A stretch of DNA of 64,000 nt from contig CAWHWQ010000001.1 in NCBI GenBank assembly GCA_963833095.1, positions 192,001-256,000 on the forward strand, given 5' to 3'. How positions within the stretch are numbered: position 1 is the first letter of the stretch; each line of letters starts with the position of its first letter. Below, one piece after another: positions 27,001 to 30,000 of this stretch. The position numbers were made by a program. The stretch is from Vulcanimicrobiota bacterium. GTDB lineage: Bacteria > Vulcanimicrobiota > Vulcanimicrobiia > Vulcanimicrobiales > Vulcanimicrobiaceae.

Positions 27001-30000
27001 CGTGCAGTACGCGCCGTATGCGCTCAAAGACGGCCCGTGGACGCAAAGCGTCAAGGACGATTTCGCCGACCGCTGCTTTGCGATCGTGGAACGCTACGCG
27101 CCGGGCTTTACCTCGTCGGTGATCGACCGCCAGATTCTCAGCCCGGTTGATATCGAACAGATCTTCGGCTTGACCGGCGGGAACATTTTTCAGGGCACGA
27201 TGCCGCTGCACAATCTCTATGCTTTTCGGCCCGTACCCGGCTACGCAAACTACAAGACTCCAATCAAGCATCTTTATATGTGCGGATCGGCGGCGCATCC
27301 GGGCGGCGGCGTTATGGGCGCGCCGGGGTGGAATGCGGCGCGCGTCATGCTCAAGGAGTAACGGGAGGCGATCATGCAATCGACGCTCACAACAATCGCA
27401 TTAGACGACGGCGCAACCACGACGCTGGAGAAATGGGGCGAACGCGGCCCGGTGATGCTCTGCGTGCACGGGATGACCAGCTCGCGCAAGGCGTGGTATC
27501 GACTCGCTCAACGGTTCTCCGATCGCTATCAAGTCGCGGCATACGATCAACGCGGTCATGGCGACAGCGCCGCGGTACGGGGCCCAATGACGCTCGATCG
27601 CGGCGTGGCGGATTTGCGCAACGTCGCGGCGGCGATCGGCGCCGATGTGCTGGTCGGTCATTCGTGGGGCGGTGCGCTGGTGGTGCGCGGTGGCCTCGAC
27701 TTAGCAGAGCGCGCGGTCGTAGCAATCGACCCGATGCTCGTGCAAGTCGGCGACACGTGGTACGCGGAGTTCATCGAAGACCTCGACGAAATGTTTTCTG
27801 CCAGCGGGCCGATTCGCGATGCGCGCGTTCGTGTTGACTACCAGCAATGGCATCCCGACGACATCACGGGAAAAATTCACGCGGTGCATTCGATGACCAC
27901 GGCTCCGATCGCGGGACTGCGCGATCAAAATCGCGATGGTACGTGGGATTTGCGTGGCGAAATTGCGATGTATTCGAAGCCCTTACTGCTCGTAATGGCC
28001 GGACGCGAGGGTTCGATCGTGCCCGACGCGGTGATGGCCGAGATCGACGCGCATCATTCGGCAAACGTCCGGATCGTGACGCTTGACGATCAAGGGCACA
28101 ATCTCCATCGCACCGATTTCGATCGCTTCGCAAACGCGATGGAAGACTTTTTGGCTTCGCTGCAATGATCATCCAATCCGACAGGAGCGAAGGCCGGACC
28201 GTGGAAACGAGGGCCGTCACGCCGGAGTCCCATAGCGGTCGATTGGGCGGGTTTTGTAAATCCGAGACGCAAGTCCACGTCGGTTCGAATCCGACCTCCG
28301 GCTCCGTTCGCTAGAAGGAACGCATGCAACCGGTTAACCCCAAATGGCTCGACAGCGGACTGGTTCTGGTCTGCGAGCGCTGTTTCAAGGAACGCATTCC
28401 CGAGGAAGCGCCCGAGGTCGCAGAGCGCATCGGCGACTTCAATTTGCGCGACTGGTTGAAAGCCAAGCTCAAAGAGCACGACGAGTGGGGTCCCATTCGT
28501 GTCATTGCCACTACCTGTATGGACGTCTGCGCCAAAGGTAAAGTAACGGTTTGTTTGGATTCGAAAAATGGCGATCCGGCAAGCGTACTTATCGTCGATC
28601 CCGTCGAAGAACGCGAAAAACTTTACGCGACCATTGTCGAATCGATGGGCAAAAAGGCCCGATCCCAGTAAACCCTCAGGCTCCCCGGACCGAACACTTA
28701 TAAAGCATTCCTTGGAGTGCGGGTGTGTTCCAATACTTCCGTCCACTATGGGCAGGGGGCTATTTTCGTGGGACTCCTCGTACGTTTCGGGCACGTAGCA
28801 ATCGCGACCGCGCTCCTTCTTCCTCTGATCTCCTGGGCGCCGGCAACTGCCGACGCCATTGTCCGCATCGGCGGATCGACCAACGACACTCCGGCACTCA
28901 CCAAGATTGCGGCAGCATATCAAGCCGCCCATCCCGGAACAACAATCGCCATTAAAGGATCGAGCTCGGGTGAGGGCATCGCCGCGCTACGGGCGCGCTC
29001 GCTCGACATCGCATGCTCGGACGTCGCCATCGACGATCCGGACCTCATCGATACCAAGCTCGGCGTCGTCGGTTTCGTTTTTGTAGTCGGCGGCGGTGCC
29101 GGCGTAACGAATCTAACCCGTGCGGATGTTCAAGGAATTTATTCGGGTAAATTTACCAACTGGAAGCAGGTCGGCGGAAATGACCTTCCGATCGTTCCAT
29201 TTAGCCGGCCGCTCGGCGTCGGGACGCGGTTCATTTTCGAAACGACCGTCGCAAAGACGCTCGTCGATATGAAGACCCTCCCCGACGCAACCGCAGTCGT
29301 GAACACGGTCGCCACGACGCCCGGCGCTATCGGCTACAGTTCGACGAACTATGTCGGCGACCATCAGAATCTCGTCGTGAATTACGAAGGCGTAGCACCG
29401 ACCGATGTCAATATCGTCAACCACATCTATAAATTCGCGACCGACGAGCATGCGTACACGCTCAAGGATGCGACGCCCGAGACCCGCGCGTTTCTCGCGT
29501 ACGTCGCAACGCAGCCGGCAATTCTAAAATCCTACGGCATTCTTACCGCTGCCGACGCATCGCCGGCGAAGGCGCTGCGTGTCGAAGGCACGCTCAATCA
29601 AGCGACGCCGCTGCAAAAGGCCGCAGCCGCCTATCAACTGGCGCATCCGGGGTCGCTCGTTGAAGTCAAGGCTACCAATTCGGGCCAAGGCATTGCCGCC
29701 TTGCGCAACGGCGATACCGACGTCGCCGCATCCGATATTTCGGTCGACTATCCCGAGTTCGTGGATTCTACCATCGGCGTACTCGGCGTCGCCGTTCTTG
29801 CGGGCCCGCACGCCGGCGTAAAAAACATCACCCGCGATCAGCTCGTTGCGATCTACTCGGGCAAGATCAAGAACTGGAAGGAGATCGGCGGGGAAGACCA
29901 GCCGATCGTCGTTTTTGGCCGCGCGATCGGCACCGGAACGCGCATGCTCTTCGAGACGAAGGTCGCCAAAGTCGAGATCCCGACGCAGGATCCGGTCAAT

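What a model noticed while it worked through the whole genome (the two positions that open the first line are those of the whole stretch)
28221..28305. Class II-like tRNA-Thr(UGU) with a long variable arm, gained repeatedly within Vulcanimicrobiaceae
The genome's only tRNA-Thr(UGU) has a 14-nt variable region folding into a stem-loop (GAC-GCAA-GUC) and a class II-type D arm, features normally confined to Leu/Ser/Tyr/Sec tRNAs, while keeping Thr identity (G1-C72, C2-G71, UGU, U73). The same syntenic gene flips between short- and long-arm forms in the family, even within a genus.
Evidence so far: Cloverleaf; long paired arm with different sequences in 8 of 17 family genomes with a match, 11-nt in 2, short in 7; tRNA-Thr(UGU) of other families short; syntenic with g00254/sigH, and a further long-arm ortholog with compensatory changes.
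(Added by a program. Inside this text positions count along the whole contig: contig position 192,001 is position 1 of the stretch shown here. "Call 12" and the like, gene names such as g00115 and contig names such as C1 are that model's own, and its searches are not shown. The text may have been shortened before it was handed on; [...] marks where a part breaks off. The agent that wrote the report below was given it as the finding of a first reader that could run no searches.)

Follow-up and report, generated by a model that had tools for sequence, protein, structure and literature searches.

The report
Long-armed threonine tRNA swapped by endonucleases
This bacterium's only tRNA for the threonine codon ACA has the long side arm that textbooks reserve for leucine, serine and tyrosine tRNAs; the same design is common in phages and seems to be swapped in and out of the host chromosome together with a selfish DNA-cutting gene that sits next to it.

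Summary
Confirmed. Window 28221-28303 is a full tRNA-Thr(UGU) with a 14-nt arm (3-bp stem) and class II D arm, the only Thr(UGU) found in the genome. About 134 of 277 family genomes with a match carry a long form at the same core locus; arm length shows no phylogenetic signal. It is not family-specific: long forms fill two capped scans of viral contigs (239 of 240 valid), occur in cultured phage GAP32, and are the sole copy in a gut Kiritimatiellia clade. The arm covaries and sits in the tyrosine-type register. New here: an HNH endonuclease gene, intact or decayed, abuts the gene's 5' end in 30 of 77 loci; a PD-(D/E)XK endonuclease abuts Thr(GGU); exactly such endonuclease-flanked tRNAs (three Thr, Gln-CUG) are hypervariable while neighbours are nearly invariant. 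Best reading: homing-type cassette replacement imports divergent, partly phage-type alleles. Charging and cleavage are untested. Not found in ten open-literature searches. The scan earlier noted a similar HNH/tRNA-Thr cassette in a phage, not the long arm.

The parts
28221..28303 (+). tRNA-Thr(UGU) gene, class II architecture; anticodon 28255-28257; discriminator U73 at 28303; CCA not encoded
28230..28246 (+). Class II-type D arm: 3-bp stem, U13.U22, G15 (pairs with C48), three bases between G19 and A21
   Evidence: sequence; this type in 80 of 81 long and 7 of 37 short family alleles
28265..28278 (+). 14-nt variable arm: stem 28266-28268/28273-28275, 4-nt loop, two unpaired bases, C48 at 28278 (tyrosine-type register)
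28183..28206 (+). Promoter-like motif (AGGA, 14-nt spacer, GTGGAA) 14 nt before the tRNA; resembles a sigma-H promoter (consensus recalled)
   Evidence: 15 of 77 loci against 0.0008 per random 70-nt window; motif was derived by eye from the same loci; no sigma-70 site
27374..28168 (+). Alpha/beta hydrolase gene ending 52 nt before the tRNA: the site where relatives carry the HNH gene is empty in this genome
28324..28671 (+).
   Evidence: no Pfam/PHROG/NCBIfam hit; atlas lead only
24652..24968 (-). Decayed, frameshifted PD-(D/E)XK (PDDEXK_5) endonuclease gene between tRNA-Gly(UCC) and tRNA-Thr(GGU)
   Evidence: PF11645 E 0.014 on a 37-aa piece; tblastn E 2e-8 with intact relatives
24577..25147 (-). 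Tyr(GUA)-Gly(UCC)-Thr(GGU) cluster; Thr(UGU) stood at its head in the ancestral order and was turned round by a local inversion
31262..34920 (-). cysE-cysS-rlmB-sigH, the other anchor of the locus; used for the host tree
   Evidence: sigH; the names cysE, cysS, rlmB are my reading of the translations

Best explanation
It is a working threonine tRNA for ACA built on a tyrosine-type class II body. ThrRS reads the acceptor pairs and the anticodon and tolerates the arm; the short arm, its tyrosine-type register, C2-G71, U73 and the UGU anticodon keep SerRS, LeuRS and TyrRS away (inferred). The gene lies at the normal thrU locus but is exchanged often: a free-standing HNH endonuclease gene directly upstream travels with the tRNA allele as a cassette. 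Inferred mechanism: the enzyme cuts the tRNA-Thr gene of a recipient, repair from the donor copies in the endonuclease gene and the donor's cut-resistant tRNA allele, crossing over in or just after the T arm/acceptor end; the endonuclease then decays or is lost, as in this genome. Escape from such cutting favours divergent bodies, and the class II body, plentiful in phages, is one of them. Shown: structure, covariation, sole-copy status, synteny, lack of phylogenetic signal, adjacency, mobility of the HNH gene, matching hypervariability. Inferred: charging, DNA cleavage, homing, phage origin.
For: Function: sole Thr(UGU) here with ACA at about 4 per 1000 codons and one ordinary ThrRS; sole copy in 5 of 5 Kiritimatiellia genomes and 4 of 10 scattered genomes; U73 and G15-C48 in 81 of 81 long family alleles; the review lists acceptor pairs and anticodon, not the variable region, as Thr identity (PMC9976931 passages). 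Register: a stem of 3 or more pairs with two unpaired bases before N48 in 68% of family, 52% of viral and 90% of Kiritimatiellia long alleles against 4-6% in shuffles; Ser and Leu registers near shuffle level in the family set. Turnover: 26 changes on a 71-tip host tree, shuffles 23.3 +/- 2.1; 73 distinct alleles in 77 loci; divergence at host distance under 0.1 is 0.21 for Thr(UGU) and 0.12 for Thr(GGU) against 0.012 for Tyr and 0.007 for Gly. Cassette: in 6 close pairs with different alleles the 3' flank aligns and the 5' flank aligns poorly; HNH directly 5' in 30 of 77 loci, PDDEXK_5 directly 5' of Thr(GGU) in 23 of 23 hits; in a genome-wide search 29 of the 30 best HNH loci lie within 130 nt of a tRNA gene; HNH tree disagrees with host tree. 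Prediction met: Gln(CUG), which has an HNH neighbour, shows 6 anticodon stems in 10 genomes of the genus, Gln(UUG) 2 near-identical ones in 18. The same HNH family adjoins tRNA-Thr(UGU) in 5 of 5 cultured phages inspected, in GAP32 a long-armed one. PDDEXK_5 matches PDB 2OST. Precedent: SegB spreads itself and surrounding tRNA genes (PMC2330249 abstract and discussion).
Against: No charging, expression or cleavage data; the one RNA run is contigs only. The window's own gene has no HNH, nor do 47 of 77 loci. HNH presence does not track arm length (16 of 45 long, 14 of 32 short), so the model explains turnover, not why long arms are so frequent. tRNA distance correlates only weakly with HNH distance (rho 0.14) and about as much with host distance (0.18). 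Only 8 of 120 viral long-arm loci show this HNH within 300 nt. No viral allele is closer than 81% to the window gene, so no donor is identified. Asn(GUU) has 4 stems in the genus and was not checked for an endonuclease neighbour. The fold search does not separate DNA-cutting from tRNA-cutting HNH enzymes.
Confidence: 0.62

Rival explanations
1. RNA-level arms race: the tRNA is a normal Thr decoder, but its body diversifies to escape tRNA-cutting defence or toxin enzymes (PARIS AriB type), or the adjacent HNH is itself a tRNase whose neighbour allele is the antidote.
For: AriB cleaves E. coli tRNA-Thr(UGU) in the anticodon stem and T5 variants escape; U39-to-A abolishes cutting of tRNA-Lys (PMC12409363 abstract, introduction and passages); the window gene has A39; long arms are enriched in phages; HNH effectors of retron/Septu systems cut the tRNA-Tyr variable loop (PMC13096335 passages) and appear among weak fold hits.
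Against: Lys(UUU), AriB's main target, is invariant in 17 genomes of the genus; Gln(CUG) and Thr(GGU), not depleted by AriB in that paper, are hypervariable and have endonuclease neighbours; the Thr(GGU) neighbour belongs to a DNA homing family; no antitoxin or ATPase partner was noticed beside the HNH.
Confidence: 0.2
2. Drift under relaxed selection: ACA is rare, ThrRS ignores the core, and arms arise and vanish by local indels in place.
For: ACA is the second rarest Thr codon; some short alleles look like clean arm deletions from long ones (7 of 37); intermediate lengths of 6-8 and 11-12 nt exist.
Against: Other rare-codon tRNAs (Lys UUU, Gly UCC, Gln UUG) barely change; Thr(CGU) and Thr(GGU), which read the common codons, also vary; whole stems change with full compensation between near-sister genomes together with the upstream DNA.
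Confidence: 0.1
3. The long form is charged with another amino acid (Ser or Tyr) or both, so that ACA is recoded or ambiguous.
For: Long arms are SerRS determinants (PMC7609411 passages); the best cultured-phage DNA match of the window gene is a tRNA-Tyr.
Against: Arm is short and in the Tyr register, C2-G71, U73 and UGU; near-sister genomes swap long for short forms, which a code change would not allow. ACA columns were not tested against protein alignments.
Confidence: 0.05

Closest known systems
Bacterial class II tRNA-Tyr
   Same: Long arm with a short stem and two unpaired bases before C48 (as in this genome's own tRNA-Tyr); 3-bp D stem with non-Watson-Crick 13.22; shared UGUAA in the anticodon loop, one base out of register; 46 distinct viral tRNA-Tyr with a GCCG acceptor share D arms with long Thr forms.
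   Different: Anticodon UGU, C2-G71, U73 (A73 in 46 of 46 of those Tyr); occupies the thrU locus and is the only ACA reader found.
Class II tRNA-Ser and tRNA-Leu
   Same: Long paired variable arm; Ser-like D loops in many alleles.
   Different: Ser and Leu arms in this genome have 4-7 pairs and 0-1 unpaired bases before N48; that register is at shuffle level in the family's long Thr alleles.
allo-tRNAs and selC* tRNAs (Mukai et al., PMC5389517; reviewed in PMC7609411)
   Same: Unusual long-armed tRNAs found by genome mining, often on mobile DNA.
   Different: Those have 8/4 or 9/3 folds; this one is 7/5. The paper's main text has no 'tRNAThr', 'threonine' or 'UGU' (term search only; supplements not read).
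Free-standing homing endonucleases in phage tRNA clusters (T4/T6 SegB; T5 F-Tfl enzymes named in PMC2330249)
   Same: Endonuclease gene abutting tRNA genes, stop codon at or inside the tRNA, moves with neighbouring tRNA genes; homologues of this HNH adjoin tRNA-Thr(UGU) in a T5-like phage.
   Different: Here the cassette sits at single-copy core tRNA loci of a bacterial chromosome, one endonuclease lineage per tRNA, and the tRNA body is hypervariable; SegB is GIY-YIG and reads the conserved T loop.
I-Ssp6803I family (PDDEXK_5; PDB 2OST)
   Same: Neighbour of Thr(GGU) matches PF11645 (E 1e-31 to 2e-38) and 2OST (E 3e-4).
   Different: That 2OST is I-Ssp6803I, encoded in a group I intron in the tRNA-fMet anticodon, is recalled; here the gene is free-standing and the tRNA has no intron.
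Nematode and other eukaryotic non-canonical V-arm tRNAs (nev-/nov-tRNAs; recalled, not read)
   Same: Long arm on a tRNA whose anticodon is not Leu/Ser/Tyr.
   Different: As recalled, those derive from Leu/Ser tRNAs, are extra copies and are charged by the arm-reading synthetase; this is a sole bacterial copy with Thr acceptor identity.

Membership tests
Class II tRNA architecture | Variable region of more than 10 nt forming a stem-loop | tested here: met
   14 nt, 3 bp; covariation in 20 family and 25 viral 14-nt arms
Class II tRNA architecture | 3-bp D stem, non-Watson-Crick 13.22, enlarged D loop, 15-48 pair | tested here: met
   Watson-Crick 13-22 in 0 of 81 long family alleles against 21 of 21 outgroup alleles; three bases after G19 in 72 of 81; G15-C48 in 81 of 81
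Class II tRNA architecture | Anticodon for Leu, Ser, Tyr or Sec | tested here: not met
   UGU in a 7-nt loop on a 5-bp stem
tRNA-Thr isoacceptor | G1-C72, C2-G71, G35, U36 | tested here: met
   Present in the window gene. In relatives these positions were fixed by my search patterns, so their conservation there is no independent evidence
tRNA-Thr isoacceptor | Orthologous position and no other ACA reader | tested here: met
   thrU position in 76 of 77 loci; single copy; genome 80.7% complete
tRNA-Thr isoacceptor | Charged with threonine, reads ACA | not testable with these tools
   No biochemical or raw RNA data
tRNA-Ser / allo-tRNA | Long arm with no unpaired base before N48; 8/4 or 9/3 fold for allo-tRNA | tested here: not met
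   Two unpaired bases; 7/5 fold
Free-standing homing endonuclease cassette | Endonuclease gene of a homing family next to a conserved target, patchy, often decayed | tested here: met
   HNH_3/HNH and PHROG 1271; PF11645; intact and broken copies. Absent at the window's Thr(UGU) itself
Free-standing homing endonuclease cassette | Moves independently of the host lineage with flanking DNA | tested here: inconclusive
   Single clear cases (HNH distance 0.10 at host 0.22; 0.75 at host 0.12) but weak overall correlations and a poorly supported 142-column tree
Free-standing homing endonuclease cassette | Cuts endonuclease-less allele, spares own allele, drives non-reciprocal inheritance | not testable with these tools
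   Needs cleavage assay and cross

The most novel reading that the evidence does not exclude
Threonine is a fourth amino acid with a natural, widespread class II tRNA in bacteria and phages, built on a tyrosine-type body, and free-standing homing endonucleases keep replacing essential single-copy tRNA genes in a bacterial chromosome, drawing on a phage pool and making these tRNAs evolve roughly twenty times faster than their neighbours.
Probability: 0.5. Interest if true: 0.85.

Novelty: new variant of a known kind. Interest (0 to 1): 0.74.

Why it matters
The rule that long variable arms belong to Leu, Ser, Tyr and Sec underlies models of tRNA identity and of how the code evolved; a sole-copy Thr tRNA with such an arm in about half of a bacterial family, in a second bacterial clade and in many phages breaks it, and makes directly testable how SerRS, LeuRS, TyrRS and ThrRS share out arm length and orientation (natural long/short pairs from near-sister genomes exist, and a cultured phage carries one). 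Second, core tRNA genes are usually treated as slow, vertically inherited markers; here specific ones turn over as cassettes beside selfish endonucleases, which offers a route by which phage tRNA designs enter host translation and a source of small endonucleases with tRNA-gene targets.

Tried and rejected
BLAST-type DNA search of relatives found only 6 of 61 genomes because the gene diverges; replaced by pattern searches. Gene conversion from the neighbouring host tRNA-Tyr: rejected, the Tyr gene is near-invariant and unlike the long Thr alleles. Integration hotspot at the tRNA's 3' end: rejected for Thr(UGU), the 3' flank is constant. Upstream motifs as decayed old tRNAs: first idea, rejected once they translated as the HNH tail. 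Intron in the variable region: the 17 archaeal hits have broken anticodon stems and were dropped as intron-type genes, with 2 hits containing N, 3 chance hits and 1 Tyr-register gene (23 of 119). Cultured-phage and plasmid BLAST with the window gene gave only a phage tRNA-Tyr and nothing. A single-protein scan of viral contigs for the HNH found nothing; tblastn on cultured phages did. Sequence and fold searches of PDB for the HNH gave no match at E 0.001. Sequencing runs were contigs only: no evidence on expression; low-share runs say nothing on habitat. The IQ-TREE host tree did not finish; FastTree was used. PMC13219725 and PMC6582537 (HNH in mycobacterial tRNA arrays) did not describe this tRNA.

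Full report
1. The observation. The gene is real: ARAGORN gives tRNA-Thr(UGU) at 28221-28305 and the Rfam tRNA model 49.1 bits at 28221-28303. The sequence shows a 7/5 cloverleaf with a 3-bp D stem, U13.U22, a 14-nt variable region with a 3-bp stem and two unpaired bases before C48, G1-C72, C2-G71 and U73. It is the only Thr(UGU) among 41 default ARAGORN calls and the only pattern match in the 80.7% complete genome. ACA makes up about 4 per 1000 codons in long ORFs (a rough filter), and the genome has one ordinary ThrRS and one SerRS.

2. How common in the family. A pattern from anticodon loop to acceptor end matched 277 of 301 family genomes. Restricted to variable regions of 11 nt or more it matched 138 of the same 301; by eye 4 of these are chance matches only, leaving 134 genomes in 25 of 78 genera (judged on the 3' half only; 5 of the 134 are genomes flagged unpublished). 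In the window's genus 12 of 18 are long. Outside the family, 62 of 77 phylum genomes matched and every true gene was short; 4 longer matches were chance by eye (one of the 62 is flagged unpublished).

3. Same locus, no lineage signal. I fetched 80 regions chosen for contig size and to include both forms; 2 were tRNA arrays, 2 outgroups, and with the window 77 are family core loci (45 long, 32 short). 76 of 77 have sigH, the Tyr-Gly-Thr cluster or the 115-aa ORF next to the gene: this is the ordinary thrU position, inverted in most genomes. On a FastTree of four flanking proteins (71 rows; 10 dropped for too few residues) arm type needs 26 changes, shuffled labels 23.3 +/- 2.1. Near-sister pairs differ (host distances 0.065-0.086). 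The sample is not random, and direction of change cannot be assigned branch by branch; outgroups are short.

4. Beyond the family. A capped GTDB scan gave 119 loci, 96 valid cloverleaves: 64 that I assigned to this family (some by sequence likeness, as their titles name other or no taxa), 22 to a gut Kiritimatiellia group (15 by title, 7 by likeness) and 10 scattered. The long form is the only Thr(UGU) by pattern in 5 of 5 Kiritimatiellia genomes, while an even class-wide sample had 1 long among 107 genomes with a match. Of the 10 scattered genomes 4 have only the long form and 6 have it beside a short one. In viral contigs two capped scans gave 120 of 120 and 119 of 120 valid long forms; 9 of the first 120 viral Thr(UGU) genes with a GCCG start are long; long Thr(CGU)/Thr(GGU) are rare (10 valid of 14 hits). 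The cultured jumbo phage GAP32 and two Yersinia phages carry one, annotated simply tRNA-Thr. Both scans need a fixed start of four bases, so other forms are missed.

5. Architecture. Among distinct alleles, a stem of 3 or more pairs with two unpaired bases before N48 occurs in 68% of 81 family, 52% of 92 viral and 90% of 10 Kiritimatiellia long forms, against 4-6% in shuffles; this is the register of the genome's own tRNA-Tyr, while its Ser and Leu tRNAs use 0-1 unpaired bases. In the GCTG-start viral set the register is less uniform (33% with two, 32% with three, 27% with one). Pairs covary. D arm and variable arm change together: class II D arm in 80 of 81 long and 7 of 37 short family alleles, 84 of 92 and 3 of 108 viral ones. 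Kin are not independent, but the viral set repeats the pattern. A tyrosine origin is suggested, not shown: the best cultured-phage match of the window gene is a tRNA-Tyr (79% over 66 nt), the two anticodon loops differ by a one-base shift of register, and 46 distinct viral tRNA-Tyr have a Thr-like GCCG acceptor and overlapping D arms. The window gene is up to 81% identical to viral long forms, 64% to viral short ones.

6. Why it flips. All three Thr tRNAs are hypervariable in the genus: 6, 6 and 9 anticodon stems (UGU, GGU, CGU) in 18 genomes, against 1 for each Lys tRNA in 17 and 4 for Asn (counted by eye); divergence figures are. In close pairs with different alleles the DNA aligns from the T arm or acceptor end onward and poorly upstream. 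Upstream lies an HNH endonuclease gene, often with its stop codon inside the tRNA: 30 of 77 loci, 16 of 45 long and 14 of 32 short (queries came from these loci). A PDDEXK_5 gene lies directly 5' of Thr(GGU) in 23 of 23 hits, and the window holds a broken one at 24652-24968. A genome-wide search not centred on tRNAs found the HNH in 45 of 79 genomes; of the 30 best loci 29 are within 130 nt of a tRNA gene: 18 before Thr(UGU) (one in an unpublished genome), 7 before Gln(CUG), one each before Tyr, Thr(GGU), Glu(CUC), and one after Thr(CGU) in this very genome. That predicted a variable Gln(CUG), and it is: 6 stems in the 10 genomes matched, against 2 near-identical stems for Gln(UUG) in 18 (by eye). 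The HNH moves between hosts in single clear cases, though overall correlations are weak. The family has 2451 relatives among 8000 candidates scored and 108 cultured-phage records; 5 of 5 inspected adjoin tRNA-Thr(UGU).

7. Mechanism. Most likely the tRNA is threonylated and reads ACA (about 0.88 on its own), and cassette replacement driven by homing-type endonucleases explains the turnover (about 0.65-0.7). The window shows the late stage: endonuclease gone, allele and a promoter-like leader kept. Against: nothing biochemical; most loci lack the HNH today; HNH does not track arm length; no donor found. The main rival is escape from tRNA-cutting enzymes; AriB does cut Thr(UGU) (PMC12409363), but its main target Lys(UUU) is invariant here.

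8. What is known. Read: PMC9976931, PMC7609411, PMC13433404, PMC8450103, PMC5389517, PMC13096335, PMC6582537, PMC3943268, PMC13219725 (passages by term search); PMC12409363 (abstract, introduction, passages); PMC2330249 (abstract, most of the discussion). The reviews assign long arms to Leu, Ser, Tyr and Sec. Ten searches returned no description of a long-armed tRNA-Thr or of endonuclease-linked turnover of core chromosomal tRNA genes. The library lacks most subscription journals, I read no supplements (tRNA tables of PMC5389517 or phage genome papers could list such genes), and the eukaryotic V-arm work is recalled only. Endonucleases in phage tRNA clusters are known.

9. Verdict. Real, wider than reported, and a new variant of the class II tRNA with a plausible selfish-element mechanism. 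Interest 0.74.

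Noticed in passing
window 24652-24968 (-): Frameshifted PDDEXK_5 endonuclease remnant before tRNA-Thr(GGU); intact in many relatives, absent in others; one contig of run X20 skips it.
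   Followed up: yes
G000:C1:646585-646971 (-), locus L734: Apparently intact HNH gene of the same family 78 nt after tRNA-Thr(CGU) in the window's genome.
   Followed up: partly
G000:C5:45390-45694, and L736-L744: A more distant HNH lineage sits before tRNA-Gln(CUG) across the family; that tRNA is hypervariable and has an odd T stem in this genome.
   Followed up: partly
L484 (G123:C103) and L507 (G060:C52): Large tRNA arrays (over 20 genes) in family genomes; the G123 array has a long-armed tRNA with a Thr-like acceptor, A73 and a Tyr-register anticodon loop, a possible intermediate.
   Followed up: partly
L532-L594 (viral contigs): 63 loci, 46 distinct valid tRNA-Tyr(GUA) genes with a GCCG acceptor (C2-G71), all A73; whether ThrRS or TyrRS charges them is open.
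   Followed up: partly
L396-L409; G381:C295:12050-12132: Long-armed tRNA-Thr(CGU) (9) and Thr(GGU) (1) in viral contigs, and a long Thr(CGU) in an array in a Planctomycetota bin.
   Followed up: no
window 28183-28206: Promoter-like motif with a fixed 14-nt spacer before Thr(UGU) in 15 of 77 loci and before no other tRNA of this genome; resembles a sigma-H promoter (recalled), and sigH lies 3 kb away.
   Followed up: partly
window 28717-31094: Two phosphate-binding-type periplasmic protein genes, and the rlmB and cysS genes at 32144-34249, show frame changes in this assembly (ORF ends drift out of frame); possibly long-read errors.
   Followed up: no
G000:C8:180009-180081 (-): A second tRNA with a GUC anticodon whose body looks like tRNA-Asn/His rather than the genome's tRNA-Asp.
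   Followed up: no
L410 (phage Atu_ph07, 332073-344137): 17 tRNA genes found by ARAGORN in a stretch where the record annotates none; a hypothetical protein is annotated over the tRNA-Tyr.
   Followed up: no
window 28324-28671: Family-conserved Cys-rich 115-aa ORF with no Pfam hit that stays with the tRNA through the inversion; atlas neighbours suggest a 2Fe-2S thioredoxin-like fold.
   Followed up: partly
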